Shown here piece after piece: positions 35,801-64,000 of a stretch of DNA of 64,000 nt (positions within the stretch are counted from its first letter, which is position 1; the number at the start of each line of letters is the position of its first letter). Under the pieces are notes generated by a model, which was not told the DNA's origin, ran no database searches, and saw only the letters and a program-made list of their open reading frames with translations. The position numbers and the translations under genes were made by a program. The stretch is taken from positions 64,001 through 128,000 of the forward strand of contig JAXDQS010000001.1 in the NCBI GenBank assembly GCA_034667725.1. Reading direction: 5' to 3'. This DNA comes from Thermoplasmata archaeon. GTDB lineage: Archaea; Thermoplasmatota; E2; JACPAO01; JAHFTW01.

Positions 35801-38800
35801 TGGACCCCATCACGCTCGCCATGGCCGAGGACGCGGCCCCCGCCACCCACACGGTTCGGCTCGCGACCCAGCCGACGGCTCCCGTCACGGTCACGGTGAC
35901 GGCCGAGCCCGGGCTCACGGCCGCCGCCGTCCTCACCTTCACGCCCGCCGACTGGGACCAGCCGCAGCCGGTCGACGTCCAGCCGGTCGACGACGACCGC
36001 GCCACCGGCGACCGCACCCTCGTCGTCACGCACGCCGCCACCAGCGACGACCCGTTCTACGCCGGCCGCCTCGCGCTGCTGCCCGTCGACGTCGCGGAGG
36101 ACGACGCCGTCGGCGTCGTCGTGCTCGCCCCGGCGCTTGGGGTCACGGAAGGCGGCGCCGCCACCAGCTACGGCGTCCGCCTCGCCTCCGAGCCCGCCGC
36201 GTCGGTCACCGTCACCGTGGTCCCCGACGACGACCCGGCCACCTACCTGCGCGCCGAGCGCGCCGGCTCCCCCACCCTCACGTTCACGCCCGCCGACTGG
36301 GCCGTGCCGCAGTTCGTCACCGTCTGGGCCCCCGACGACGATGTCGCCAACGGCGCGCCCACCACCCACGCCGACCTGCTGCGCCACCTCGTCGCTTCGT
36401 CCGATTTGGCCTACGACGGCCTCCCCGCCGCCGACGTCAACGTCACCATCGAGGACCTCGACCAGCCCGGCGTCGTGCTGGCGCCCGCCGGCCTGGTCGC
36501 CGGCGAGGACGGCACCACCGCCACCCTCCAGGTCCGCCTGCTCTCCGAGCCGAAGGCCGCCGTCACGGTCCGCCTGTCCGCCCTCGGCCGCGCGCTCCTC
36601 GGCGACGATGCGGTCACCTTCACGCCGGCCACGTGGCGCGACGCCATCGAGGTCCAGCTCACGGTCGCCGACGACGCCATCGACCAGGCGCCGCGCGGCC
36701 CCAGCGACGAGGCCGACGTCATCTCGGCCACCGTCGAGAGCACCGATCTCGCCTACGCCGGCTTCCTGCCGGACGACCTGGCCATCACGCTGCGCGACGA
36801 CGACACCAGCGGCCTCGTGGTCTCGCGCGTCGTCATCCCGCTCGCGGAAGGCGGCGCCGCGGACACGTTCTCCATCCGCCTTGCGACCGAGCCGACCTCG
36901 GACGTGGCCGTGAGCCTCGACGTGCCCGGCGACGCCACCGCCAGCCCGCTCACGCTCGCGTTCACGCCGGCGGACTGGAGCGACCCGCGCACCGTCACCG
37001 TCGCCGCGGTCGACGACGCCGTCGACGAGGACGCCGAGGCGGTGCCGCTCACCGCCACCGCGGCCGCCGCCGACCCGCTCTACGACGGCCTGGCGGCAGG
37101 GGTCACGCTCAACATCGCCGACGACGACACCGCCGGCTTGCGGGTCGCGCCCGCCAGCGTCGCCGTGACCGAAGGCGAGGCCGGCGTCCTGGTGCGGTAC
37201 ACGCTTGGCAGCGAGCCCGAGTCCACCGTCACCGTCACGCTGGCGCCGGGCGCGCGCGTCGGGGTCGCGCCCGCGGTGCTGACGTTCGACGCCAGCAACT
37301 GGCAGACGGGCCTCGAGGCCTTGGTCACGGCGCCCGACGACGACCGCATCCGGTCCTCGCCGTTCGACTCGCTCGTGACCGCCACCGTGGCCGCCGCCGA
37401 CCCGCGCTACGCGGCCTTGGCGCCCTTGGAGCTGCCGGTCACCGTCACGGAAGACGACACCGCCGCGCTGCTCTTGACCCAGACCGGCGGCCGCACCACG
37501 GCCACCGAGAACAGCACCGCTTACGACATGTACACGCTGGCGCTGCAGACCATCCCCGACGCCGACGTGGCGGTCGACATCCTTGCCGACGCCGAGGTCG
37601 AGGTGTCGCTCGACGGCACCGCCTGGGCAAGCAGCCTCGCGCTCACGTTCGACAGCATGGCGCCGCAGACGGTCTACGTCCGTGCCGTGGACGACGCCGA
37701 CGCCGAAGGCTCGCACACCGGCGCCTTGCTGCACACCTTGTCCACGACGGACCCGAACTATGCGCTGGCGCCGCGCGGCCTCGCCGTGGTCATCACGGAC
37801 GACGACGCGCCCGGCATCGACATCCAGGAGATCGATGGCGCGACCGAGGTCGCCGAGGCCGGCACCACCACCGACGCCTACACCGTCGCGCTCACCACGC
37901 GGCCCACCGACGACGTCACCATTGCCATCACGCCCGCCCTCGCCGGCCAGCTCGACATCTGGCCGCCGTTCCTTACCTTCACGCCCGCCGACTGGCGCAC
38001 GCCCCAGACGGTCGCGGTCACGGCGCTGCAAGACCTCGTCGACGAGGCCGAGGCTCCGCTCGCGCTGCATCACGGGGCCAGCAGCAACGACGCCGGCTAC
38101 GACGGCCTCGCCGGCAACGACGTCGACGTCACCATCCTGGACGACGACGAGGCCGGCATCGAGATGGCGGCGGCCCTGAGCGTCGTCGAAGGCGGCACAG
38201 TCCTCCATCGCGTCCGCCTCGCCAGCGAGCCGACGGCCTCGGTCAGCGTCACGTTCACGAGCGGGCCCGAGGCCGCGGTGCCGCCGACGGCGCTGGTCTT
38301 CACCGCCGGCGACTGGTCGATCTGGCAGGAGGTCGCGGTGGCCGGCCGCCCCGACGACATCGACGACGGCGACGCCACCGCCACCCTCACCGCCACCGCC
38401 TCGTCCGCCGACGCCGCCTACGAAGGCTTGCAGGCCACCACGACGGTCACCGTGCTCGACGACGACGAGGCCGGCGTCCAAGTCTCCCCCTCCGGCACAG
38501 CGCTGGTCGCGGAAGGCGGCGCGGGCACCACCCTCTCCATCGTCCTCGGCACCCGCCCCTCGTCCGCCGTCCGCATCACCATCGCGACCAACGGCCAGGC
38601 GACCGCGACCGCCTCGATCACCTTCGGCGTCGGCACCTGGAACGTCCCCCAGACCATCACCATCAACGCCGCGGCCGACAACGTCGCCGAAGGCCTGCAC
38701 GCCGACGCGCTCCGGTTCACCGTCGCCTCCAACGACGGCCTCTACGACGGCTTCACCCTCGCGGACGTGCCCATCGCCATCACGGACGACGACGTCGCAG

Positions 38801-41800
38801 CCCTCCTGCTGGAGCCGGTGGCCGGCGGCGCCACGGTCGCGGAAGGCGGCGCCACCGACACCTACCGCGTCCGGCTCGGCTCGCAGCCGGCGGCGGCGGT
38901 GACGGTGTCGTTCTCGCCCGACGCCCAGCTGGCCGGCCTCCCCGCGTCCGTCATCATCCCGCCGGCCTCCTGGAGCACCGGCGCGCTCGTGACGGTCGGC
39001 GCGGCCCAGGACCTGCGCGTCGAAGGCAACCACACCGGCATCGTCGGGCACGCCACGGCCAGCGGCGACCCGAACTACGCGGGCCTCGCCGCCAGCCTGA
39101 CGGTGGCGGTGCAGGACGACGACGCCGCCGGCCTGCTGGTGGCCGAGACCGGCGCCGACACGCGCGCCGTCGAGGGCGGCGCCAGCGACACCATCGAGCT
39201 GCGCCTCGCCAGCGAGCATGACGCCGCCGTCACCGTCACCATCGCGGGCGGGCCGCAAGTCGCGCTGGTCCCTGGTACGGTCACCTTTGCGGCCGGCGAC
39301 CTGGGGCCCAAGACCATCCAGGTGGCCGCGGTCGACGACCCCGACCGCGAAGGCCCGCACGGCGCAAGCCTCTCCTTCACGCTCACGGGCGACGCGCTCT
39401 ACGCCGGCCTAGCGGCGCCGGAGCTTGCGGTCGTCCTCCAGGACAACGACGTCCCCGGCGTCCAGGTCGCGCCCACCGCGCTCGCGCTCGCGGAGGCCGG
39501 CGCCACCGCCGGCAGCTACACCGTCGTCCTCGACACCCGCCCCAGCGGCACGGTCCAGGTCGACGTGCTGCCGGACGTCGCCGGCCAGGTCGTCGTCAGC
39601 CCCGGCGTGCTGGTCTTCACCGTCAGCGACTGGAACGTGCCGCGCACCGTCACGGTCACCGCCGTGGACGACCCCGACGCTGAAGGCCCGCACGGCCTCG
39701 CCATCGACCACGCGCCGCGCACCACCGACGCCGACTACCGCCTGTTCCCGATTCCCCAGGTCGGCGTCGCCCTTGCCGACAACGACGAGCCCGCCCTGCT
39801 GCTGGGCCCGGCCCCAAGCCTGGTCGAGGGCGGCGCGACGGGCAGCTTCACCGTCCGCCTCGCCACCCGGCCCGCCAGCGACACGCTCTTGGGCATCACG
39901 CTGGGCGGCGTCACCGCGGTGCCCGGCGACCTTGTGTTCACGCGAGCGAATTGGGACACGCCGCGCACCGTGACCCTCACCGCCATCGACGACCCGGACT
40001 TCGAAGGCCCGCACGCCGGCCTGGTCCGCTACACCGCCGTCGGCGACGCCCGCTACGCCGGCCTTGTTGCGGAGCTGGCCCCTGCCATCACGGACAACGA
40101 CGTGCCCGCGCTCGTCGGCACGCCCGTCCCGCTCGTCGTCGGCGAGGCCGGCGGCAACGACACCATCCAGTTCCGGCTCGGCAGCCGCCCGCGCGCCGCC
40201 GTCGACGTCGCGCTCACCGGCAGCCAAGTCGTGTCCGGCACCGCCGCCCTGCGCTTCTTGCCGACGAACTGGGACCAGCCGCAGGCGGTCGCGGTCGCGG
40301 CCGTCGACGACGGCGACGTCGAGGGCACGCCGCACGCCGGCCTGCTCACGGCCGCCTTGTCCAGCACGGATCCGGCCTACGGCTTCACGGCGACCTTCGC
40401 GGCCCAGGTCACGGACAACGACGCGCCGGGCCTTGAGTTCCTGGAGACCGACCGCGCCACCGAGGTCGCCGAGGACGGCGCCACCGACACCTACGGCGTC
40501 CGCCTCGCCGCGGCACCCACCGCCGAGGTCGTGGTCGTGGTCGCTGGCGATGCGCAGGCCACCGCCGCGCCCGCCACGCTGCGCTTCACCCCCAGCGACT
40601 GGCAGGTCGCGCAGGACGTCACGGTCAGCGCCGTGGACGACGCCGTCCAGGAGGCCCCCTCGCACCTCGCGTTCCTCACGCACACGGTCACCGCGGGCGA
40701 CGCCGGCTACCTCGCGCTGGCCGCCCGCGTCCTGCCCGCGACCGTGCGCGACGACGACGTGGCCGCCGTCCGCGTGGTGGAGCCCGGCGGCTCGACCAAC
40801 GTCCTGGAGGACGGCGCCACCGACAGCTACACCATCGCGCTGGCCAGCCAGCCCACCGCCGCGGTGACCGTCCGGGTCTTCGGCGACGCGCAAGCCGGCG
40901 CAAGCCCGGCGGTCCTCACCTTCACGGCCGCCGACTGGTCCGTCCCCCAGACGGTCACCGTCAGCGCACGCCACGACGACATCGTCGAAGGCGACCACGC
41001 CGGCCGCCTGTTCCACACGGTCGCAAGCGCCGACGGCTTCTACGACGGCCTGCCGGCCGCCGACGTGCTGGCGGGCATCACCGACGACGACGCGCCCGGC
41101 GTCTTCCTCGCCGAGACCGGTTCGGCCACCGCGGTCGCGGAGGACGGCGCCACCACCGACAGCTACACCGTGGTGCTCACCAAGGCGCCCGTCGCGGACG
41201 TCGTGGCCACCATGGCGCTCGACGCCGCGCAGGCCACCGTCGCGCCGGCCACGCTCCGCTTCACGGCGGCCAACTGGGACCAGCCGCAGGCCGTGACGGT
41301 CACCGCGGTGGACGACGACCGCGCCGACGGCGACGGGCCGTTCCCGCTCACGCACGCCCTCACGGGCGACGCCGCGTACGCCGGCCTGCCCGTGCGCGCC
41401 CTCGCCGTGGCCGTGGCGGACGACGACACCGTCGGCCTGGTGGTCGTCGAAGGCCCGCTCGGCACCATCGCCGACGAGGGCGGCGCGGGCGGCCGCTACC
41501 ACCTCCGCCTCACCTCGCGGCCGGCCGCCGACGTCGTGGTCACCATCACGGGCGACGCGCAGGCCACCGCCACGGCGACGGTGCGCATCCGCGCCGCCGA
41601 CTGGGACCTGCTGCACCCGGTGGACGTCGCGGCGGTGAACGACGCCCTCGACGAGGAGGACCTCCACCCGGCCCTACTCATGCAGCGCATCACGAGCGCC
41701 GACCCGGCCTACGGCCTCCCCGACCTGCCCGTCCCCGTCCTGGTGCGCGACGACGACGCCATGCCAACGATCGGGTTCGTCCGGGCCGCGACCGAGAGCC

Positions 41801-43029
41801 TGGAGGACCAAGGCGAGGCCCGCGTCGAGGTCCGCCTGTCCGCCGTCAGCGGCCGCAACGTCACCGTCCAAGTGGCCCGCGTCGGCGGCACCGCGCTGGC
41901 CGGCACCGACCACGGCTTCGCCGGCGCCACCCTCACCATCCCCGCCGGGCAGCGCAACGCGACCTTCGCGATCCCCATCACCGCGGACACCGAGCCGGAG
42001 CCCGACGAATCCATCCTGATCGCCCTGGAATCTCCCGTCCACGCGACCCTCGGCGCCGCGGCGGCCACGCACTGGATCGACACCGACGACCTGCCCGGCA
42101 TCACCGTCACCGGCCTGGCCTCGGTGCGCGAGGGCGGCAACGCCACCACCCTCATGGTCCGCCTCCCCGCCGCCCCCGCCGGCACGGTCACCATCCGCGT
42201 CCAGCTGGCCGAGCACTGGCAGCTCTCCGCCGGCCCGGTCCTGCTCACCTTCACGCCGGCGGACTGGAGCACGCCCCAACCCGTCACCCTGGTCGCGGTC
42301 GAGGACCTCAGCCCCGACGGCGACACCACCGTCGTGGTCGTGTTCGAGGTCGTGCCCGGCCTCACCAGCCCCGAGTACCGCCGCGCCGGCAGCACCGCCG
42401 TCCCCGTCGCCGTCCTCGACCGCCTCAACTCGCCCGGCCTCGGCGCCGGCCCGCCGGTGGCCAGCATCTTCTCCGGCGGCGGCAGCGACACCCCGACCGT
42501 GATCCGCAAGCCCGCGCCGCCGCCGGTGCGGCCGCCGCCGCGCGGCACCGTCGTGCTGGAGCGCGAGGCCGTCGCCGACCACGACATCACCGACCGCCTC
42601 GAGTTCCGCGCCGACGGCGGCCCGGTGCTGGAGTGGTCCGCCTACCAAGGCGCCGTCGGCTACCAGGTCTGGCGCGACACCGGCCGCGGCTGGGAGCTCT
42701 TGGCCACGACCTCGGGCAACCGCATCGACGCGGGCGACCTGGTGCGCCCCGGCGACCGCGTCAAGCTCACCTTCCACGTCGGGTTCGGCGCCGCGGACGG
42801 CCTCGTGGCGGACGGCGTCGCCGCGGCGGAATTGCGGGGCTGGGACGACGGCGAGGCGCTCACGGTCCCGGACTACATGCCGGGCGAGCGCGGCCACGAC
42901 GCCGCCCGCCACTTGGGCGAGGACGCCTTCCAGTGGGGCCTGCTGCTGCTCCTGCTCCTGGCCATCCTGGTGGTGGCGGGGCTGGAGTGGCGCCGCCGCA
43001 GCCGCAAGGGCTCCAGGAAAGCGGCGTAA
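32857..43029 (+). CDS. Giant (~3,390 aa) Calx-beta/cadherin-like repeat surface protein
   Basis: Signal-like N-terminus; more than 20 modules of ~110-120 aa with LTFTPADW..PQ.V.V.AVDD..E and TDDD motifs; C-terminal TM plus basic tail; start uncertain. Confidence 0.9.
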   Translation: MKPRRVPTSPAEATAAGRSPRRKPGPALVAGILVVALLAGLPLAAPPAEAHVARVGQTTAGGTTDATSFLMAHATPAGSHRVLVAVIHHLDQTGPAIGAQASARYGTLDLTCPPEARSEGAFVDGRRLLVATQVCYLVNPPVGTANLLAMWDQPVASYVVTAASFENAEPGPPGMPSVGAMGQANAVSADPELPLVTDQDDSLIVGGANAKSVEPVKFVALAGTTTIPGSAASASPTPGALDDLRVVSGQRQTAAAGSYLLGWDLQLDPSGAPSTPRDIAIAAIELHTHPDALWDGTSATQGTEAVAAPRVSVALEHRFGAPLKVGFAATGGTAIQGADYSFTGGPCTAAAPCELSVPAGSLSADIPLAIVDDRLFEADETIEITLSSVAGSHVVAPTTWTYTILDDDVDVAFRVAAGNGTETLRFPTVAVDLSRSWTVPILVTYSVKDGRASKPSDYLLANGVLTFPAGNRTQTIPLEIVNDLRDEDPENFTIKLEGATPANANVASPSVFDYTILDDDPEPALTITAVSPVGENAGPAIATVTLSQDSGKNVTVRYTATDGTATGGGVDYTLASGTLRFVPGEISKAIAVALTNDAIDEDDENLTVSLSSPANATLAGSAATIVIDSEDQAGIVLSRTSLAVAEPEPGVPAAPDGYTVRLATQPTEPVRITLTTLGNDATPTVVTLDFTPANWNVPQTVQVVAVDDFIDEADPHNDTLRHAATGDPRYAILAPVDLPVVVDDNDNASVRLSRSALEVSEDGLDDAFTVVLTSQPEGPVTVTVRVFDGQVTADNGSGPGGTVVLGFTPADWMLAQTVLVRAVDDARNETDVHLSSLNFTAASSDPLYHAWPIADLPVQVHDDDEVGVDYSATLLALAEDGTPTATYSVALRSEPAAPVTIWIDVEGGQAEANRTSLVFTPTDWNVPQVVAVQALDDAVDEDDPHADRVLHVATSLDPDYDIPAARAVDLRIADNDQAGILLDPITLAMAEDAAPATHTVRLATQPTAPVTVTVTAEPGLTAAAVLTFTPADWDQPQPVDVQPVDDDRATGDRTLVVTHAATSDDPFYAGRLALLPVDVAEDDAVGVVVLAPALGVTEGGAATSYGVRLASEPAASVTVTVVPDDDPATYLRAERAGSPTLTFTPADWAVPQFVTVWAPDDDVANGAPTTHADLLRHLVASSDLAYDGLPAADVNVTIEDLDQPGVVLAPAGLVAGEDGTTATLQVRLLSEPKAAVTVRLSALGRALLGDDAVTFTPATWRDAIEVQLTVADDAIDQAPRGPSDEADVISATVESTDLAYAGFLPDDLAITLRDDDTSGLVVSRVVIPLAEGGAADTFSIRLATEPTSDVAVSLDVPGDATASPLTLAFTPADWSDPRTVTVAAVDDAVDEDAEAVPLTATAAAADPLYDGLAAGVTLNIADDDTAGLRVAPASVAVTEGEAGVLVRYTLGSEPESTVTVTLAPGARVGVAPAVLTFDASNWQTGLEALVTAPDDDRIRSSPFDSLVTATVAAADPRYAALAPLELPVTVTEDDTAALLLTQTGGRTTATENSTAYDMYTLALQTIPDADVAVDILADAEVEVSLDGTAWASSLALTFDSMAPQTVYVRAVDDADAEGSHTGALLHTLSTTDPNYALAPRGLAVVITDDDAPGIDIQEIDGATEVAEAGTTTDAYTVALTTRPTDDVTIAITPALAGQLDIWPPFLTFTPADWRTPQTVAVTALQDLVDEAEAPLALHHGASSNDAGYDGLAGNDVDVTILDDDEAGIEMAAALSVVEGGTVLHRVRLASEPTASVSVTFTSGPEAAVPPTALVFTAGDWSIWQEVAVAGRPDDIDDGDATATLTATASSADAAYEGLQATTTVTVLDDDEAGVQVSPSGTALVAEGGAGTTLSIVLGTRPSSAVRITIATNGQATATASITFGVGTWNVPQTITINAAADNVAEGLHADALRFTVASNDGLYDGFTLADVPIAITDDDVAALLLEPVAGGATVAEGGATDTYRVRLGSQPAAAVTVSFSPDAQLAGLPASVIIPPASWSTGALVTVGAAQDLRVEGNHTGIVGHATASGDPNYAGLAASLTVAVQDDDAAGLLVAETGADTRAVEGGASDTIELRLASEHDAAVTVTIAGGPQVALVPGTVTFAAGDLGPKTIQVAAVDDPDREGPHGASLSFTLTGDALYAGLAAPELAVVLQDNDVPGVQVAPTALALAEAGATAGSYTVVLDTRPSGTVQVDVLPDVAGQVVVSPGVLVFTVSDWNVPRTVTVTAVDDPDAEGPHGLAIDHAPRTTDADYRLFPIPQVGVALADNDEPALLLGPAPSLVEGGATGSFTVRLATRPASDTLLGITLGGVTAVPGDLVFTRANWDTPRTVTLTAIDDPDFEGPHAGLVRYTAVGDARYAGLVAELAPAITDNDVPALVGTPVPLVVGEAGGNDTIQFRLGSRPRAAVDVALTGSQVVSGTAALRFLPTNWDQPQAVAVAAVDDGDVEGTPHAGLLTAALSSTDPAYGFTATFAAQVTDNDAPGLEFLETDRATEVAEDGATDTYGVRLAAAPTAEVVVVVAGDAQATAAPATLRFTPSDWQVAQDVTVSAVDDAVQEAPSHLAFLTHTVTAGDAGYLALAARVLPATVRDDDVAAVRVVEPGGSTNVLEDGATDSYTIALASQPTAAVTVRVFGDAQAGASPAVLTFTAADWSVPQTVTVSARHDDIVEGDHAGRLFHTVASADGFYDGLPAADVLAGITDDDAPGVFLAETGSATAVAEDGATTDSYTVVLTKAPVADVVATMALDAAQATVAPATLRFTAANWDQPQAVTVTAVDDDRADGDGPFPLTHALTGDAAYAGLPVRALAVAVADDDTVGLVVVEGPLGTIADEGGAGGRYHLRLTSRPAADVVVTITGDAQATATATVRIRAADWDLLHPVDVAAVNDALDEEDLHPALLMQRITSADPAYGLPDLPVPVLVRDDDAMPTIGFVRAATESLEDQGEARVEVRLSAVSGRNVTVQVARVGGTALAGTDHGFAGATLTIPAGQRNATFAIPITADTEPEPDESILIALESPVHATLGAAAATHWIDTDDLPGITVTGLASVREGGNATTLMVRLPAAPAGTVTIRVQLAEHWQLSAGPVLLTFTPADWSTPQPVTLVAVEDLSPDGDTTVVVVFEVVPGLTSPEYRRAGSTAVPVAVLDRLNSPGLGAGPPVASIFSGGGSDTPTVIRKPAPPPVRPPPRGTVVLEREAVADHDITDRLEFRADGGPVLEWSAYQGAVGYQVWRDTGRGWELLATTSGNRIDAGDLVRPGDRVKLTFHVGFGAADGLVADGVAAAELRGWDDGEALTVPDYMPGERGHDAARHLGEDAFQWGLLLLLLLAILVVAGLEWRRRSRKGSRKAA

Positions 43030-56026: not shown

Positions 56027-57435
56027 GCCCGTGCCCGCGGGCCGTGCCGTTCGCGCTGGCCGCCGCGTTCCTCGCCCTCCCCGTGCTGGTGCCGCCCGCC
56101 AACGCCTTGGGCGGCGAGGCGCAGCGCGCCATGGTCACCGACGCCGACCTGCGGGGCCCGCTCGTGGCCGCCGACCTGCCGCCTGAGCACGCCGACGCCA
56201 AGCTGACGCTGCGGCTTGAGGCGGCGGCCGCCACCTTCCTGGTGCAAGAGTATCGCTGGACGGCCGGCGCCACCAGCGTCCAGTCGCTCGCCACCCATCC
56301 CGACGACCGCGTCGGCCACGTCGAAGGCGTCGTGGCCACGGGCGCGAGCCGCGACGACGTCGCCTTCACCCTGCTGCCCCTCGCCGAGGGCGCCGCCACC
56401 CTCCAGGTCGTGGCGCCCTGCCTCGGCCTGGCGGCCGCCACCAGCGGCACCGCCACGTTCGTGGACCGCACCGGCGGCGGCCCCAGCCCGCCGCCCGCGC
56501 GCCCCGCGCCATTGGCCGGCAGCCTGGCCGCAGGGGCGTGCCAAGGCACCGCCACCGTGCGCGCCACCGGCTCGTTCCAGTTCTCGCTGTGGAGCCTCGA
56601 CGTCGAAGCCAGCGGCGCCGGCGACGCCGGCACCTACCCCTCCGGCCGGGAGCAGGACGCCCGGGCCCCCGGCGCCCCCTGCGTGGCCGGCTGCGACCTC
56701 GTCAAGCGCCAATCCTACGTCACCGTCGAGAACGGCACCCTGGAGATCACGGGCGTCCCGCTCGCCTCCGCGTTGCTGCACGCCACCGCGCTGCGCGGCC
56801 CCGCCACCAAGCTCGTCCTCGACGAGGGCGAGCCCATCGTGCACGCCGGCGGCCTCACGCTCGACCTGCGCGCCGACAGCGGCCGCGTCCGCGCCGTGGC
56901 CGCCCCCGTCCAGCCGCCCGCCAACCCCGACGCCGTCGTCGCCCAAGGCCCGCTCGCCTGGGGCTGGGGCTACGGCCTGCTTGCCGCCCTCGCCCTCCCG
57001 GCCGTCGCCGTCGGCCTCATCGCCGTCCGCGGCCGCCGCGCCGCGCGCCGGCTCGACGACGCCGAGGCGCTGCTGGAGCAAGGCCTGCCCCACGAGGCCG
57101 CGCGGCTGGCCCGCCCACTATTGCGGCGCGCCCGCCAGCGCGACGAGGCCGCCTTCGTCCTCGTGCAGGCGCTGTGCGACGCCGGCGTGCCCGCCGAGGC
57201 GCGCGCGACCGTCGCGCAAGTGTGGCCGGCCGACCGCCCGGTCGCCGCCTACCTGCGCGCCTACATCGAGGCCGCGCAAGGCCGGCAGGACGCCGCCGTC
57301 CGCGAGCTGGCCGACTGCCTCGCCGCCGCGCCCGACTTCCTGCCGGAGGTCCAGGCCCAGCCCTTGTTCCGCCGCGCCCTGCGATCGCCCGCCCTGGCCC
57401 GCTGGCTGGGGCCGCACAGCCCGGGGTACTCGTGA
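56023..57435 (+). CDS. Single-pass membrane protein with extracellular domain and cytoplasmic TPR-like domain
   Basis: Signal peptide, TM WGWGYGLLAALAL...RGRR, AYLRAYIEAAQGRQDAAVRELADCL. Confidence 0.72.
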   Translation: MSPCPRAVPFALAAAFLALPVLVPPANALGGEAQRAMVTDADLRGPLVAADLPPEHADAKLTLRLEAAAATFLVQEYRWTAGATSVQSLATHPDDRVGHVEGVVATGASRDDVAFTLLPLAEGAATLQVVAPCLGLAAATSGTATFVDRTGGGPSPPPARPAPLAGSLAAGACQGTATVRATGSFQFSLWSLDVEASGAGDAGTYPSGREQDARAPGAPCVAGCDLVKRQSYVTVENGTLEITGVPLASALLHATALRGPATKLVLDEGEPIVHAGGLTLDLRADSGRVRAVAAPVQPPANPDAVVAQGPLAWGWGYGLLAALALPAVAVGLIAVRGRRAARRLDDAEALLEQGLPHEAARLARPLLRRARQRDEAAFVLVQALCDAGVPAEARATVAQVWPADRPVAAYLRAYIEAAQGRQDAAVRELADCLAAAPDFLPEVQAQPLFRRALRSPALARWLGPHSPGYS

Positions 57436-57911
57436 TGGAGCCGGACGCCCGCGCCCGCATCGTCGTCCTGGTCGCCGCCACCCCTGGCCTTTCGCTGCAG
57501 GACCTGGCGCTCGCGATGGGCCTCAGCCGCACCGCCGTCGCCCGCCACACCCGCCGCCTCGCCAAGGACGGCCGCATCCGCCGCATCCGCTCCGGCCGCC
57601 GCGTGCTGCACGTCCCCAACGGCCACGAGGGCAACCCGACCATCCTCGCCGCGATGCGCCAACGCACCGCCCGCATCGTGCTGGAGTCGTTCCGCGCCGA
57701 CCCCCGCCTGCCCGTGCGCGAGCTGGCGCGGCGGCTCGACGTCACGCCGAAGGCCGTCCGCTGGCACGTCAAGCGCTTCCGCGCCGACGGCCTGCTGGAG
57801 GGCGCCGGCATGGAGCGCGACGGCCGCCGCGGCCGCCCCGACGCCGGGCTCGGCGAAGGACTGGAGGCGATGCCGGTGTGGGACCCGGCGGAGCATCCGG
57901 AGCACGGCTGA
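57435..57911 (+). CDS. Tandem winged-helix transcriptional regulator
   Basis: PGLSLQDLALAMGLSRTAVARH..L.KDG and RELARRLDVTPKAVRWHVKRF; translationally coupled. Confidence 0.82.
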   Translation: MEPDARARIVVLVAATPGLSLQDLALAMGLSRTAVARHTRRLAKDGRIRRIRSGRRVLHVPNGHEGNPTILAAMRQRTARIVLESFRADPRLPVRELARRLDVTPKAVRWHVKRFRADGLLEGAGMERDGRRGRPDAGLGEGLEAMPVWDPAEHPEHG

Positions 57912-57924
57912 CGCCGGCCGCCGG

Positions 57925-57966
57925 CTACAGGCTCGCCCGCACCTTCGCCTTGGCGGCTTCCAGGCA
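57925..57966 (-). pseudogene. Orphan alaS-like C-terminal fragment (CLEAAKAKVRASL*)
   Basis: Aligns with the live alaS end FLEQAKRNVAQSLS* (7/13 identical, no gaps). Confidence 0.65.
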
Positions 57967-58022
57967 CTCGCGCGAGGGCGCTCCGCCCCGCGACCCCCTG
58001 AAGGCTCGCGCTGCGGCGCTCG

Positions 58023-60833
58023 CTACGACAGGGACTGGGCGACGTTGCGCTTCGCTTGCTCGAGGAACGCCGGGACCATCGCCGTGTTGGTCGTCGCGCC
58101 CTGCACCATGTCCGGCTTGCCTCCGCCACGGGCTCCGGCCAAGTCCTTGACTTCCTGGAACTTGGCTCGCAGGTCCAACTGGACGTCAGCGGAACGCGCG
58201 AAGATGAACGGGCCTTCCGTCGAAGCCAGCAAGGCCACGACGCCTTCGGGTTGGGTCAATTCGGCAGCGACTTTCTGCAAGGCCGCCGCGGGCAGAATCT
58301 GCACCACGATGCGGAACCGTCCAACCGGGTGGGCGTTCGCGACCGCGGCCTTGCTCTCCAGCTCGGCGAGGCGGGCGTTCAGGGTCTCGAGCTGCTTGCG
58401 CTGCTCCTTCCATTCGCCGAAGAACCGCTTGGCCGCGTTGGGGACCTCGGCGGGCGCCACCTCCATCGCCTCGCCGGCGGAGCGCAGCAGGTCGTCGGTG
58501 GCCTGCCAGCGCTGCACGGCGTAGGGGCCGGCGGCGTACTCGAAGCGCTCGACGCCGTCCTGGACGCGCTCGGTGCGGTACAGCTTGATGGGGCCGACCT
58601 CGTGGGTGGTGTTGCAGTGGGTGCCGCCGCAGTATTCGACGTCGAAGTCCGCGATCTCCACGACGCGCACGTCGCGGCCCTTGGGGATGCCGCCTTGCAG
58701 CAGCGTGAGGCCGTACTTGTTCTCGGCCTCCTCGCGCTTCCACCAGGTCTTGGTGACGGCGCGGCCTTCCAGGACGACCTGGTTGGCAAGCTGCTCGATG
58801 CGCTCCAGCTCCTCCTTGGTGGGGCGCCGGAAGTGGGTCATGTCGACGCGGGCGCAGTCGTGGTACTTCTGGGTGCCCGCCTGCCACGAGTGCATGCCGA
58901 GGACGCGGCGGACGGCCTGGTTCATGATGTGGGTCGCGGTGTGGCTGCGGGTGCAGTCGAGGCGGAACGCCCAATCGACCTCGCCGTGGACGGTGGCGCC
59001 GACGGGGACCGGCTCGCTGACGTGGTGGACCGCGTGGCCGCCGTCCTTGGCGGTCGTGAGGACCTTCACCTTCTTGCCGCCCACCAGGAGCGTACCTTGG
59101 TCGCCGGGCTGGCCGCCGGTCTCCGCGAAGAAGCAGGTCTTGTCCAGGACGACGGCGTGGGCCTTGCCGTCCATGCCGGACCACAGCACCTTGGCGTCGA
59201 ACGCGCGCTGGTCCTGGTGCTTGTAGTACACGAGCTCGGTGGGCGGGACCTGGAGCCGCAGCCCCTTCTCCTTGCCCTTGGCGGCCTTGCTGTGCCGGGC
59301 CGCGACCACCATGTCGAAGTCGTCGGGCACCTCGACCTTGATGCCCATCTGGGCGGCGGCCTCCGCCACCGTGTTCGGGCCGAGGCCGTGGGTGTCGTAG
59401 AGGTCCACCAAATCGTCGGTGGTGAGCGCCTTCTTCTTCTGCAAGGTGCGCTCCACCAGGCGGAGGCCCTTGTCGCGGGAGTCGATGTAGCGCTCGGTCT
59501 CCAGCGCCATGATCTCCATCGCGCGCGGCACGGCGGCCTTGAACTCGGGGAACTCGCCGAGCATCCGCTCCATGTTCCAGGCCACGAGGTCGCCCAAGGG
59601 CTCGCGGATCCCGAGCTGCTCCATGAAGCGGAGCGCGCGGCGGGTCACGAGGCGCATGAGGTAGCCGGCCTTGACGTTGGAGGGCACGATGCCGTCGCCC
59701 ACCATGATGGAGAGGCAGCGCAGGTGGTCGCAGAGCGCGTACATGCTCTCGACCGGGCCCATGATGTCGTTGAGCTCGGCGACGTCGGTCTGGATGCCGT
59801 GCGCGGCGAGCCGCTTGACGACCTCGGCCCGCAGGCCGTCGAGCTTCTGGCCGATGTCCAGGTTGAGGATGCCTTGGACGCGGGCGTGCTCGGTGATGAT
59901 GCGGTTGGCCTTGGCGTCGTCGCGGATGCGGGCGGTGGCGAGGCCCTTGATGCGGCCAATGGTGTCGGGGAACACGGTGTCGTAGGCCGTCGGCGTCCCG
60001 GTCGAGGCCCAGGCCAGGCGCTCCAGGCCCCAGCCGGTGTCGATGATGCGCATGGGCATCCGGCGGTAGCTCTCGCCCTTGATGCTGAACTCGCCGCCCT
60101 CGGCCTCCTCCAGGCACATGAACACCAGGGTCGCGACCTCGAGGCCGCCGGCGAACACCTCGACCGCGGGGCCCGCGTTGCCGCCGCCGTTCCAGGTGCC
60201 TTCCTTGAACGTGATGCGCTTGCCGTCCAGCCCGAGGACCTTGGTCAGGAACTCGACGCCGTAGGCGACGCACTCCTCGGTCCAATACTTCTCGTCGCCG
60301 GGATAGTTGAAGGCGTGGTGGCCCATCATCTCGAAGCACGAGAAGTGGCGCCCGGAGCGGCCGATGTTGGACAGGTCGTTGAGGCGGATGCAGGGCTGCG
60401 ACACCACCAGCGGGTTGGCGGGCGGCGGCACCTCGCCGGAGGTCACGTGGGGCTGGTAGTTCGCGATCGACGCGATGTTGAGGTAGATGTCGTCCCGCCA
60501 GCGGGCGACCACCGGGTTGCGGGGCACGCGCTTGTGGCCCTTGGACTCGAAGAACCGCAGGAACGCCTCGCGCATCTGCGCCACCGACAGCGGCTTGGTG
60601 GTGAGCGGGTTGCCCAGGAAGTCGTACTCGACGCAGTTGGAGTCGCCGCACAAGGTCCGCGCCGCGTCCGTCGTCCAGAACGGGTCGTGGCACGTCGGGC
60701 AGATGCGGCGCTGGTAGCCGTTCTCGTGGAAGAACCGCAGGTCCAGCATCTTGGCGAGTTCCGGGTTCATCCCGGAGGTCGCCTTAGGCGCAGCGGGAGC
60801 GGAGCCGTCGCGCGGCTCGGGCGACATCACCAT
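58023..60833 (-). CDS. alaS: Alanine--tRNA ligase (archaeal type)
   Basis: N-terminal CPTC..CGD, PVVARWRDD, GRHFSCFEMM, DTGWGLER, HTATH, CGGTH, GGGKP; start 60833, 60827 or 60770. Confidence 0.97.
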   Translation of the reverse strand: MVMSPEPRDGSAPAAPKATSGMNPELAKMLDLRFFHENGYQRRICPTCHDPFWTTDAARTLCGDSNCVEYDFLGNPLTTKPLSVAQMREAFLRFFESKGHKRVPRNPVVARWRDDIYLNIASIANYQPHVTSGEVPPPANPLVVSQPCIRLNDLSNIGRSGRHFSCFEMMGHHAFNYPGDEKYWTEECVAYGVEFLTKVLGLDGKRITFKEGTWNGGGNAGPAVEVFAGGLEVATLVFMCLEEAEGGEFSIKGESYRRMPMRIIDTGWGLERLAWASTGTPTAYDTVFPDTIGRIKGLATARIRDDAKANRIITEHARVQGILNLDIGQKLDGLRAEVVKRLAAHGIQTDVAELNDIMGPVESMYALCDHLRCLSIMVGDGIVPSNVKAGYLMRLVTRRALRFMEQLGIREPLGDLVAWNMERMLGEFPEFKAAVPRAMEIMALETERYIDSRDKGLRLVERTLQKKKALTTDDLVDLYDTHGLGPNTVAEAAAQMGIKVEVPDDFDMVVAARHSKAAKGKEKGLRLQVPPTELVYYKHQDQRAFDAKVLWSGMDGKAHAVVLDKTCFFAETGGQPGDQGTLLVGGKKVKVLTTAKDGGHAVHHVSEPVPVGATVHGEVDWAFRLDCTRSHTATHIMNQAVRRVLGMHSWQAGTQKYHDCARVDMTHFRRPTKEELERIEQLANQVVLEGRAVTKTWWKREEAENKYGLTLLQGGIPKGRDVRVVEIADFDVEYCGGTHCNTTHEVGPIKLYRTERVQDGVERFEYAAGPYAVQRWQATDDLLRSAGEAMEVAPAEVPNAAKRFFGEWKEQRKQLETLNARLAELESKAAVANAHPVGRFRIVVQILPAAALQKVAAELTQPEGVVALLASTEGPFIFARSADVQLDLRAKFQEVKDLAGARGGGKPDMVQGATTNTAMVPAFLEQAKRNVAQSLS

Positions 60834-61974: not shown

Positions 61975-62817
61975 TCAGTAGAACCAACCGACGGCCGAAA
62001 CGGAACGGCGGGGAATCTCGAAAAGCGGGCCCGCCCGAGGATCCATCGTCCCGTTCCGGACCAGGAAGCTGTCGGATGTGGTCGCAAGGACGAACACGGG
62101 AACGGTGTACCCGAAACCCGAGGTCTCGTTCACGTTCTCCAGCAGGTTGCGGCGGACCACGGGAGTCAAGCCATCGGGCTCGATTTCCAAGATGGCGACC
62201 TCTGGGAAGGTCCCACCAAACTCGGGTGCAAGGTCTTCCATGAAAATGAGCGGAAACGAAATCATGGCCACCATTACGAAAGTCCCGACGACCAAGACCG
62301 TGACGTCCTCCTCGTCCTTATGGAGGTGTTTGTCTTTTGCGAAGAGCCGGTTGAGCAGGGCCGCGAGAGCCGGCACCGCCACACCCAACAGAACGCCCTG
62401 CATCGCGTACAGCCAAGGGGAGTAGGTGTTCTCTTCCAGCATGTCGAACCCTTGTCCAATGAAGTAGCATGCCAACACGCCCAATGCTCCGGCAACGGGG
62501 TAGACAAGGAGCACCCAGGTCGACCTCCATCCCCGACGGCAGGCTTTCCTGTAGGCCTGATGCGCCATCACGAGGGCAAACGCGACCATGAGTCCAAGCA
62601 CAAGGGCTGCAAACCCAAGCGCCAGCAGCCGCTCCGGTGGTGCGGAAACCCATCCTAGACGGTAATCGTACAGATGCCGGCCCCAGGCCATGAAGCCAAT
62701 GACATAGGCGGCCGGCAAGATACCCAATGCGATGTTCCTGACGGTCAGCATCCAACCGTAGCGGAAAGTCAACTCCGGATCAGAGATGTCCGCTTCCTGG
62801 ACGGTCTCGTCTGCCAT
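61975..62817 (-). CDS. Multi-pass membrane protein of atypical (lower GC) composition
   Basis: About 5 TM segments; many A/T-ending codons. Confidence 0.7.
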   Translation of the reverse strand: MADETVQEADISDPELTFRYGWMLTVRNIALGILPAAYVIGFMAWGRHLYDYRLGWVSAPPERLLALGFAALVLGLMVAFALVMAHQAYRKACRRGWRSTWVLLVYPVAGALGVLACYFIGQGFDMLEENTYSPWLYAMQGVLLGVAVPALAALLNRLFAKDKHLHKDEEDVTVLVVGTFVMVAMISFPLIFMEDLAPEFGGTFPEVAILEIEPDGLTPVVRRNLLENVNETSGFGYTVPVFVLATTSDSFLVRNGTMDPRAGPLFEIPRRSVSAVGWFY

Positions 62818-62907
62818 TGCACGCCTATCGAAAAATTCGCAGAAAGAGGTATCGATTTCTTGCTCCCTGTTGGGTGTCCTAAAAAGCATGGAGAATCTAG
62901 ACCCCTC

Positions 62908-64000
62908 GTGGACGCCCTCCCCCCCGCCCTCGACCCCCGCCTGCGGGCGCGGGCGCTGGCGGGCGCGGCGTGGGTGCGCGAGCAGCACCAGGCGGGCCGC
63001 CGCATCCTGGTCGTCCACCACTTGGACGCCGACGGCGTGACGGCCGGCGCCATCGCCGCCGAGGCGCTGGCGCGCGCCAACGTCCTGCACGCCACCCAGG
63101 TGGTGCGCTCGCTCGACGACGTCCACGTCCGGCTGGTCCACGACGCGGCGCCGACCGCGCTCTGGTTCTGCGACCTTGGCAGCACGGCGTACATGCACTT
63201 CCCGCAGCCGAAGCTGGTGTGCGACCACCACCAACTGGTGCGCGACGGCCACGAGGAGTCGTTCCCGCACGTGAACCCGCTCCTGGACGGCATCCCGGGC
63301 GAGACCATCTCCGGCGCGGGCTGCGCGTTCCTGGTCGCCGCCGCCATGGACGCGGCCAACGCGGACCTGGTCGTCCCGGCCCTCGTGGGCGCCGCGGGCG
63401 ACCGGCAGGACCGGCCGTTCGAGGGCACCAACCAGCTCCTGGTCCGCCTTGCCGTCGGGCGCGGCCTCGCCGACGCCGCCATGGACCTGTCGTTCTTCGG
63501 CCCCGAGACCCGGCCGCTGCGGCAGTTCCTCGCCCGCGGCGACGTCCGCGTGCCCGGCGTCGCCGGCGACCCCCGCGGCGCCGAGGCCCTGCTCCTGGAG
63601 CTGGGCCTGCCGGCCGACACCACCTGGAGCGCGTTGTCGCCCGACGAGCGGCTGCGCGTCCGCTCCGCCCTGGCGACGCGGCTCCTCGACTGCGGCCTGG
63701 CCGCCGAGGTCCCCGGCCTGTGGCGCGAGGTCGTGCGGCTGGCGCGCGAGCCGCCGGGCCCGACGCGCGAGCTGCAGGAGTTCGCCACCCTCCTCAACAG
63801 CACCGCCCGCTACGGCCGCCCCGAGGTCGGCCTGGCCGTGGCCCGCGGCGACCGCGCCGCCGCCTACCAGGAGGCGCTGGCGCTGCTGGTGGACCACCGC
63901 AAGCACCTCGTCGGCAGCCTCGGCCACCTCGCGGCCGCCGGCGTGCGCGACGGCGTGGCGCTGCAGTGGGTCGACGTCGAGGACCGCGTCCGCGACACGG
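62908..64000 (+). CDS. RecJ-like DHH phosphoesterase, runs off the window edge
   Basis: Not in the ORF track. Manual translation gives ILVVHHLDADG, FCDLGS, VCDHH, HVNP, ISGAG, VGAAGDRQ, EFATLLNSTARY. Confidence 0.9.
   Translation, partial: MDALPPALDPRLRARALAGAAWVREQHQAGRRILVVHHLDADGVTAGAIAAEALARANVLHATQVVRSLDDVHVRLVHDAAPTALWFCDLGSTAYMHFPQPKLVCDHHQLVRDGHEESFPHVNPLLDGIPGETISGAGCAFLVAAAMDAANADLVVPALVGAAGDRQDRPFEGTNQLLVRLAVGRGLADAAMDLSFFGPETRPLRQFLARGDVRVPGVAGDPRGAEALLLELGLPADTTWSALSPDERLRVRSALATRLLDCGLAAEVPGLWREVVRLAREPPGPTRELQEFATLLNSTARYGRPEVGLAVARGDRAAAYQEALALLVDHRKHLVGSLGHLAAAGVRDGVALQWVDVEDRVRDT

What the first reader, a model, noticed from the sequence alone, without database searches (positions are those of the whole stretch)
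58023..58335. Live 3' ends of alaS, atpB and pdxT have foreign-looking codon usage
Seen by eye, not computed: the last ~100 codons of alaS switch to frequent GAA, CAA, TTG, ATT, AAA, GTT and GGA codons, against near-exclusive G/C-ending codons upstream. Milder shifts occur in the last ~70 codons of atpB (AGG, ATT, TTG, GAT, CAA; 5602-5820) and ~80 codons of pdxT (544-790). Inference: these are incoming replacement tracts of 200-300 bp, much longer than the 40-60 bp orphan left behind. That fits homologous recombination on one side and a repeat-defined junction on the other.
Basis: partly seen in the sequence, partly recalled or inferred. Interest (0 to 1): 0.72.

Follow-up and report, generated by a model that had tools for sequence, protein, structure and literature searches.

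The report
Swapped-in alaS gene end
In this GC-rich archaeon the last ~105 codons of the essential alanyl-tRNA synthetase gene came from another lineage, with a 50-base hairpin linker behind them and the gene's old ending stranded just downstream; the same layout recurs at dozens of genes and tRNAs, but the claimed codon shifts in atpB and pdxT mostly do not hold.

Summary
alaS is confirmed. GC3 is 0.98 over 815 codons. It falls to 0.75 in window 58122-58325 (0 of 20000 permutations). This is the largest 3' drop among 1353 genes. The last ~105 residues are 45-51% identical to congeners, against ~80% for the body. The body and tail trees disagree.

The native alaS ending (RECLEAAKAKVRASL*) sits 50 nt downstream, in another frame, behind a hairpin linker. 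It is the best match in the whole genome to congeners' C-termini.

A congener, G007, has the same layout. Its swapped tract is shorter (~62 codons) and its orphan longer (32 codons).

atpB shows no codon shift (rank ~450-780 of ~1400). It does have two orphan ends.

pdxT has truly atypical tail codons (top ~1%). It has no orphan, no linker and no extra protein divergence.

Genome-wide, about 20 protein genes and 11 of 47 tRNAs show a live end, a hairpin cassette and an orphan. Live and orphan copies differ mostly at third codon positions (54 of 72). So both evolved as coding alleles before they were joined.

Best reading: the replacement is linked to the cassette and made by recombination, homologous on the left and at the cassette/orphan junction on the right. 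This resembles yeast WHO homing, but no nuclease gene is present.

The scan had already noted this cassette family elsewhere in this genome.

The parts
58023..60770 (-). alaS, complete live gene (915 codons plus TAG)
   Evidence: Pfam tRNA-synt_2c, tRNA_SAD and DHHA1. Orthologues at 73-81% identity in congeners.
58348..60770 (-). Native alaS body
   Evidence: GC3 is 0.98. About 80% identical to congeners. In the body tree it groups with G005/G004 at 95/94 support.
58026..58347 (-). Incoming 3' tract (about codons 808-915), the whole DHHA1-type C-terminal domain. The left edge is uncertain by about 15 nt.
   Evidence: Identity to congeners falls to 0.3-0.55 from alignment column ~890. The tail tree joins G000 with G007 at 93/96 support. 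The nearest tail in 1.84 billion representatives is 70% identical (P0006). DHHA1 scores 29.9 bits when the tail is scanned alone.
58122..58325 (-). Low-GC3 core of the incoming tract
   Evidence: 17 A/T-ending codons in 68; GC3 0.75; 0 of 20000 permutations reach this.
57973..58022 (-). G+C-rich hairpin linker (short cassette) between the live stop and the orphan
   Evidence: It folds into stacked GC hairpins. Its first 32 nt (57992-58023) are 100% identical to C10:487071-487102, behind another gene's stop. It resembles the right half of the ~105-nt cassette family: CAGGGGGTC followed by a GGGGCG-N-AGCCCC hairpin. No Rfam match.
57925..57972 (-). Orphan native alaS end, RECLEAAKAKVRASL*, in a different frame from the live gene
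   Evidence: Translation. It is the top hit in the six-frame genome to four congeners' C-termini: score 58, next best 37. Local GC at its third codon position is 0.93.
57432..57911 (+). Convergent downstream gene, which bounds the 111-nt intergenic space
   Evidence: Frame plot and gene call.
5602..7023 (-). atpB (A-type ATP synthase subunit B); the tail shows no codon shift
   Evidence: Pfam. GC3 profile. Ranks.
5464..5529 (-). atpB orphan end 1 (QQRHPKHKKAGAPMVSAPKAH*)
5318..5386 (-). atpB orphan end 2 (QQRHPKRKKHGAPQAVVAPKAH plus stop)
   Evidence: The two units have a 144-nt period and are 94% identical over 67 nt, including the hairpin.
544..1176 (-). pdxT. Atypical codons in about its last 80 codons (about 544-790). 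No orphan and no linker.

Best explanation
The last ~105 codons of alaS are not the lineage's own. They are a diverged allele of the AlaRS C-terminal (DHHA1) domain. This allele arrived with a short hairpin linker that has no gene of its own.

On the left the incoming DNA joined by homologous recombination inside alaS, near window 58335. On the right the join lies at the end of the hairpin linker, 15 codons before the resident stop codon. The resident ending was therefore pushed 50 nt downstream as a dead orphan.

The same layout of live end, hairpin cassette and orphan occurs at about 20 other protein genes and 11 tRNAs. The orphan probably serves as the right-hand homology arm, which would let the unit copy itself into chromosomes that lack it. 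That is how yeast WHO elements replace the 3' end of FBA1.

Shown here: the foreign tract, the orphan, the linker, the recurrence across the genome and genus, and that live and orphan copies diverged as coding alleles.

Inferred: how the right-hand join is made, and any enzyme that drives it.

atpB carries such cassettes but has no codon signal. The codon shift in pdxT is unexplained and is not shown to be a replacement.
For: - GC3 and codon-usage break in alaS: rank 1 of 1353 and 2 of 1331; permutation 0 of 20000.
- Tail identity to congeners is 45-51%, against about 80% for the body.
- Trees disagree. In the body tree G000 groups with G005/G004 (95/94) and G007 with G006 (100/100). In the tail tree G000 groups with G007 (93/96) on long branches.
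- The orphan native end is the best genome-wide match to congeners' C-termini, 58 against 37. It lies 50 nt behind the live stop, on the same strand, with its own stop codon.
- G007 has a divergent, low-GC3 tail (about 62 codons), then a ~115-nt hairpin spacer, then a 32-codon orphan. 28 of the orphan's 32 residues match the live tail of its sister G006, counted by eye.
- A third carrier of the tail class, P0006, is 70% identical in the tail and 67% identical over its whole 289-residue overlap, body part included. Congeners are about 80% identical in the body and about 50% in the tail.
- Genome-wide, 33 genes exceed the threshold for a downstream copy of their own 3' end, against 10 in the null. 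Spacers share conserved hairpin ends. 11 of 47 tRNAs show the same layout.
- Live and orphan copies differ at codon positions 1, 2 and 3 by 10, 8 and 54. This gives p = 1.3e-5 against the 1:1:2 ratio expected if one copy had decayed neutrally.
- In G002, atpB orphan 1 matches the live allele of G009.
- The WHO model has the same logic (PMC7282813).
Against: - No nuclease, integrase or any ORF lies in the 111-nt space, and no moving enzyme is known.
- The donor lineage was not found. No genome of 32 in the family has a tail more than 50% identical, and a metagenome contig scan found nothing.
- Orphan-bearing genes as a group do not have low-GC3 tails (p = 0.32). At differing third positions the live copy has A/T 21 times and the orphan 16 times.
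- The G000 and G007 tails sit on long branches, so part of their grouping could be long-branch attraction.
- The alaS linkers of G000 and G007 differ in length and sequence. A single shared cassette is therefore not shown.
Confidence: 0.6

Rival explanations
1. Plain homology-facilitated illegitimate recombination. Linear DNA from a diverged relative, carrying the alaS 3' part and that donor's downstream hairpins, was anchored by homology in alaS. Its other end joined at a chance site in the resident tail. The hairpins play no part.
For: Long foreign tract and short orphan. The left boundary varies between G000 and G007. This process is documented in bacteria (PMC3240628).
Against: The right junction abuts the conserved end of a hairpin cassette family at many unrelated loci, tRNAs included. 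A 32-nt piece of the linker is identical at a second locus. Chance joints would not recur like this.
Confidence: 0.15
2. The hairpin element inserted with a long target duplication, or the gene end and downstream region duplicated in tandem. Live end and orphan began identical. The live alaS tail was replaced or diverged later.
For: Several loci have near-identical live and orphan copies with 0-1 mismatch. Some are true tandem units, such as C3:517162 and the two atpB units.
Against: Differences between copies are 75% at third codon positions. That rejects one constrained copy plus one neutral copy. Repeat lengths vary from 24 to 94 nt. For alaS the live tail and the orphan are no more alike than background (score 26). 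G002 atpB orphan 1 carries another species' allele.
Confidence: 0.1
3. An ordinary gene-end effect: relaxed codon selection or fast evolution of a weakly constrained C-terminal domain, with no transfer.
For: Many of the genes with the largest tail drops have low-complexity tails and no cassette. pdxT tails have lower GC3 in several congeners. pdxT tail protein identity equals that of its body.
Against: For alaS, an intact native-type ending lies downstream, the break is sharp and the trees disagree. This reading remains the likeliest for pdxT and fits atpB.
Confidence: 0.05
4. Assembly chimera in a metagenome-derived genome: the tail comes from a co-assembled relative.
For: The genome is in 26 contigs and is 90% complete.
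Against: The reading frame is intact across the junction. The orphan-plus-linker layout recurs at dozens of loci here and in separately held genomes G007, G002 and G006.
Confidence: 0.03

Closest known systems
WHO homing genetic elements at FBA1 in Torulaspora and Lachancea yeasts (Coughlan et al. 2020, PMC7282813)
   Same: Each arrival replaces the 3' end of an essential host gene with a diverged allele. [quoted passage not shown] The 5' and 3' trees disagree. Arrays of old ends build up (compared).
   Different: WHO elements encode their own endonuclease and target one gene in a eukaryote. Here the inserted piece is 50-130 nt of hairpins with no ORF, many unrelated genes and tRNAs are targets, and no cleavage activity is known.
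Integrative elements with tyrosine integrases that target tRNA or gene 3' ends and restore them (for example ICESt1/ICESt3 at fda, and their gene-poor CIME derivatives; recalled from memory, not checked here)
   Same: The live 3' end is supplied by the incoming DNA. An old 3' end is left at the far side. tRNA 3' ends are frequent targets.
   Different: There is no integrase and no cargo. The repeats are not a fixed identical core. The alaS replaced tract (~320 nt) is far longer than the orphan (48 nt). Dozens of different targets occur in one genome.
Homology-facilitated illegitimate recombination (PMC3240628)
   Same: One homologous anchor, a non-homologous joint at the other end, and foreign DNA added while resident DNA is lost.
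   Different: The joints here recur at the conserved end of a hairpin cassette family.
Orphan toxin and immunity modules behind Rhs, CDI and T6SS effector genes (sequential displacement, PMC5361080, abstract only)
   Same: New 3' modules displace older ones, which pile up downstream.
   Different: Those involve polymorphic toxins under conflict. Here the targets are housekeeping genes and tRNAs, and the incoming module has the same function as the old one.

Membership tests
WHO-type homing genetic element | The host gene's 3' end is replaced by a diverged allele, and the 5' and 3' phylogenies disagree | tested here: met
WHO-type homing genetic element | The displaced old 3' end fragment lies downstream of the element | tested here: met
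   G007. atpB arrays.
WHO-type homing genetic element | The element encodes a site-specific endonuclease | tested here: not met
   Only 50 nt lie between the live stop and the orphan, and the intergenic space is 111 nt in all, with no ORF.
WHO-type homing genetic element | The sensitive allele is cleaved and the incoming allele is resistant | not testable with these tools
   Needs biochemistry or genetics.
Tyrosine-integrase integrative element at a gene 3' end | An integrase gene and cargo lie between attL and attR | tested here: not met
   No ORF in the spacer.
Tyrosine-integrase integrative element at a gene 3' end | A direct repeat (att core) of fixed extent is shared by the live end and the orphan, and the replaced tract is as long as the orphan | tested here: not met
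   The alaS live tail and orphan match only at background level. The tract is ~320 nt and the orphan 48 nt. Repeat lengths vary from 24 to 94 nt genome-wide.
MITE or transposon with target-site duplication | A short duplication of fixed length, identical at birth and then decaying neutrally | tested here: not met
   Lengths vary. Third-position excess is 54 of 72, p = 1.3e-5 against the constrained-plus-neutral expectation.
Homology-facilitated illegitimate recombination | One homologous anchor plus a microhomology joint at an arbitrary site | tested here: inconclusive
   A variable left boundary fits. The right joints recur at cassette ends, which does not look arbitrary.
Alanyl-tRNA synthetase (the host gene) | Class II catalytic core, editing-associated SAD domain and C-terminal DHHA1 domain | tested here: met
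   Pfam PF01411 (384 bits) and PF07973. PF02272 scores 29.9 bits for the tail alone, against a cut-off of 25.9.

The most novel reading that the evidence does not exclude
The hairpin linkers are a new class of mobile element with no gene of its own, found in archaea. They spread by forcing replacement of the 3' end of essential genes and tRNAs. Each unit is an incoming gene end, a self-folding cassette and the old end used as a homology arm. An enzyme acting in trans, such as a nuclease or hairpin-processing enzyme, would cut alleles that lack the cassette. That would explain why incoming ends such as the alaS tail are so diverged: they would be resistant alleles.
Probability: 0.35. Interest if true: 0.9.

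Novelty: new variant of a known kind. Interest (0 to 1): 0.7.

Why it matters
An essential aminoacyl-tRNA synthetase has had a whole domain exchanged between lineages. The event left a readable scar: a linker and the old ending. The same scar marks dozens of genes and tRNAs across a genus of uncultured archaea.

If the cassettes drive the exchange, this would be a prokaryotic counterpart of WHO-type homing, with no nuclease gene in the element. It would also be a previously unrecognised route by which the ends of core genes become mosaic.

There is a practical side. Orphan ends and swapped tails can mislead single-gene phylogenies and annotation of gene ends in such genomes.

Tried and rejected
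- Self-similarity at protein level between live tails and downstream frames does not detect the alaS orphan (score 26, background). It was found only through congeners' C-termini.
- A word-indexed homologue search with the tail gave one hit at 51% identity.
- The exact-sequence look-up of P0006 found no contig. A metagenome contig scan with a tail alignment found nothing. The DNA context of the closest tail is therefore unknown.
- No genome of 32 in the family has the G000 tail class at more than 50% identity.
- Rfam gave no match to the linker or tail region. The terminator and promoter scan was uninformative.
- I looked for a low-GC3 island or integrase next to pdxT. The neighbouring genes have native GC3 of 0.92-0.99.
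- I tested whether orphan-bearing genes in general have low-GC3 tails. They do not.
- The first crude gene caller, based on GC3 alone, picked antisense shadow frames. It was replaced by a codon-likelihood caller.
- One apparent orphan (C4:12044) looks like the shared acidic tail of a neighbouring ribosomal stalk-type protein, judged from the sequence alone. It was left out of the counts.
Full report
SETTING
The window is G000:C1:64001-128000 of a 2.32-Mb genome in 26 contigs, 71% G+C and about 90% complete. It has an archaeal-type AlaRS and A-type ATP synthase subunits. Earlier notes of this scan call it an uncultured Thermoplasmata archaeon; I did not test that. I built a codon-likelihood gene caller, which gave 2069 genes covering 87.6% of the genome. 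The three named genes are alaS 58023-60770 (-), atpB 5602-7023 (-) and pdxT 544-1176 (-).

CHECKING THE OBSERVATION
- alaS. GC3 in 30-codon windows is 0.93-1.00 along the gene. It falls to 0.73-0.80 from about 58340.
- A likelihood change-point puts the break at codon 815 (window 58325). The best low segment is codons 816-883 (58122-58325), with GC3 0.75 inside and 0.98 outside. It holds 17 of the gene's 33 A/T-ending codons. No permutation of 20000 reached that clustering; the highest count seen was 12.
- Across 1353 genes of at least 200 codons, the drop of the last 100 codons against the body has mean 0.009 and sd 0.032. alaS is the largest, 0.982 to 0.820. By the log-probability of each codon given its amino acid, alaS ranks 2 of 1331.
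- The final 30 codons return to GC3 of about 0.95 but keep a below-average codon score.
- pdxT ranks 15-18 by GC3 and 6-20 by codon usage among about 1350-1750 genes. The decline is gradual over about its last 80 codons.
- atpB is ordinary on every measure: GC3 0.96 in body and tail, and ranks of about 450-830.

WHAT THE alaS TRACT IS
- I fetched alaS from 14 relatives. Identity of G000 to congeners is about 0.8 along the body. It drops to 0.3-0.55 from alignment column ~890, about residue 808.
- In the body tree G000 groups with G005/G004 (95/94) and G007 is sister to G006 (100/100). In the tail tree G000 joins G007 (93/96) on long branches. The two tails share motifs that other congeners lack, such as AFLE-Q/E-AKRNV, FIFARSA and GGGKPD-x-V-x-G.
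- The tail still scores as a DHHA1 domain, so the gene looks functional.
- In an exhaustive search of 1.84 billion representatives, the closest tail is a 292-residue AlaRS fragment, P0006. It is 70% identical in the tail and 67% identical over its whole overlap, which includes the preceding body region. Congeners are closer in the body and much further in the tail.
- No genome of 32 in the family has a tail above 50% identity. The tail therefore belongs to a separate allele class whose home lineage has not been sampled.

THE ORPHAN AND THE LINKER
- The convergent downstream gene ends at 57911. That leaves an intergenic space of 111 nt.
- In that space, on the alaS strand but in another frame, 57925-57972 reads RECLEAAKAKVRASL followed by a stop.
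- Congeners' live proteins end in sequences such as VRECLEAAKAKARAAL and VKECLEAAKAKVAALL.
- I scored four congeners' last 18 residues against all six frames of the genome. This site was the top hit each time, for example 58 against a next best of 37.
- It is therefore the lineage's former alaS ending, displaced by 50 nt.
- The 50 nt between (57973-58022) fold into G+C-rich hairpins and match no Rfam family.
- The 32 nt from 58023 (the last base of the live stop) down to 57992 are identical to C10:487071-487102, which lies behind another gene's stop.
- The right part of the linker resembles the conserved right end of a ~105-nt cassette family.

THE SAME LAYOUT IN A CONGENER
G007 has a divergent, low-GC3 alaS tail, then a hairpin spacer of about 115 nt, then a 32-codon orphan that begins GGRPDFAQGGG. 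By my count 28 of its 32 residues match the live tail of its sister G006. Divergence from G006 starts only about 62 codons before the end, against about 105 in G000. The left boundaries, orphan lengths and linkers all differ. This points to separate events with a variable, homology-type left crossover.

GENOME-WIDE CONTEXT
- I aligned each gene's last 90 nt to the 700 nt downstream. 33 genes exceed the null's 99.5% level, against 10 in the null.
- About 20 show the same picture: the live stop, then 37-126 nt of hairpins, then a copy of the last 24-94 nt including the stop codon.
- The hairpin spacers fall into families with conserved ends. One has about 12 copies of about 105 nt, and its right end abuts the orphan.
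- 11 of 47 tRNA genes have a 3'-end orphan 70-150 nt downstream, behind similar spacers. Some spacers carry an inverted copy of the tRNA end.
- atpB in this window has two orphans (5464-5529 and 5318-5386). Congeners G002 and G006 have their own. G002's first orphan matches the allele that is live in G009.

DID THE COPIES ARISE BY DUPLICATION OR BY ARRIVAL OF AN ALLELE?
If an insertion duplicated the target, the copies start identical. The orphan then decays at all codon positions while the live copy changes mainly at silent sites. Differences at positions 1, 2 and 3 should then run at about 1:1:2. Over 20 loci the counts are 10, 8 and 54, which gives p = 1.3e-5 against a one-half share for position 3. 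I excluded atpB and one locus that looks like a paralogue tail. Only 2 of 22 pairs have indels. So most of the divergence between live end and orphan arose while both were coding. They were alleles in different lineages, and recombination brought them together.

This matches the published model for WHO elements. There the old fragment behind the element is the homology arm, and the recipient's own 3' end becomes the new fragment (PMC7282813). I reached the homology-arm idea before the look-up.

LIMITS
- No enzyme is known and the cassette has no ORF.
- The donor was not found.
- Orphan-bearing genes as a group do not have low-GC3 tails (p = 0.32). The codon signal is special to alaS, whose incoming allele is unusually distant.
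- Most other genes with large tail drops have low-complexity tails and no cassette. A GC3 drop alone is therefore not evidence of replacement.
- pdxT has no orphan and no linker. Its tail protein identity (0.65-0.83) equals that of its body (0.73-0.78). Its neighbours have native GC3. Only gene order differs from relatives just downstream. Its shift stays unexplained.

VERDICT
The alaS replacement is real and well supported. The mechanism is a recombinational swap tied to a hairpin cassette with no gene of its own, and it works like WHO-type homing without a known nuclease. The atpB codon claim is rejected. The pdxT claim is a true statistic without evidence of transfer. Earlier follow-ups of this scan had already described the cassette family at other loci of this genome. 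This report adds:
- the genome-wide codon ranking;
- the discordance between body and tail trees;
- the variable left boundary;
- the significance test for the orphan;
- the codon-position test.

Noticed in passing
G000 C3:223583-223840 and ten other tRNA loci (outside the window): 11 of 47 tRNA genes have a copy of their 3' end (16-45 nt) 70-150 nt downstream, behind hairpin spacers. For tRNA-Tyr the repeat runs 16 nt past the tRNA end. Several spacers hold an inverted copy of the tRNA's T-arm and acceptor region.
   Followed up: partly
G000 C7:17700-18060 (outside the window): Behind a gene's stop lie four tandem ~75-nt units. Each ends with the gene's last ~15 nt and a TGA. They contain the motif ACAGATTCCACAGA, which also follows several orphans elsewhere.
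   Followed up: no
window 57992-58023 and G000 C10:487071-487102: A 32-nt stretch of the alaS linker is 100% identical to sequence behind another gene's stop. That locus lies 70 nt from a contig end, so any orphan there cannot be seen.
   Followed up: partly
L006 (G004 alaS locus): The alaS tail of G004 is extremely divergent (branch length 1.55 in the tail tree). I saw no orphan in the first 330 nt downstream. This may be a third tail class or a decayed case.
   Followed up: no
window 1-543: Gene order breaks right after pdxT. Most congeners have a conserved convergent gene downstream, whereas G000 has a same-strand gene for a secreted protein.
   Followed up: partly
window 32956-43029 (+): A 3357-codon gene is built of about 330-nt repeats (10-16 diverged copies per repeat family). 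It is probably a giant surface protein.
   Followed up: no
window 62001-63000: The lowest G+C in the window (0.61), against about 0.71 elsewhere. Earlier notes describe a membrane-protein gene with atypical codons there.
   Followed up: no
G000 C4:12044-13400 (outside the window): Two adjacent genes share a near-identical acidic C-terminal tail ending GLGALFG. They look like ribosomal stalk-type proteins, though I did not annotate them. The tail mimics an orphan in self-similarity scans.
   Followed up: partly
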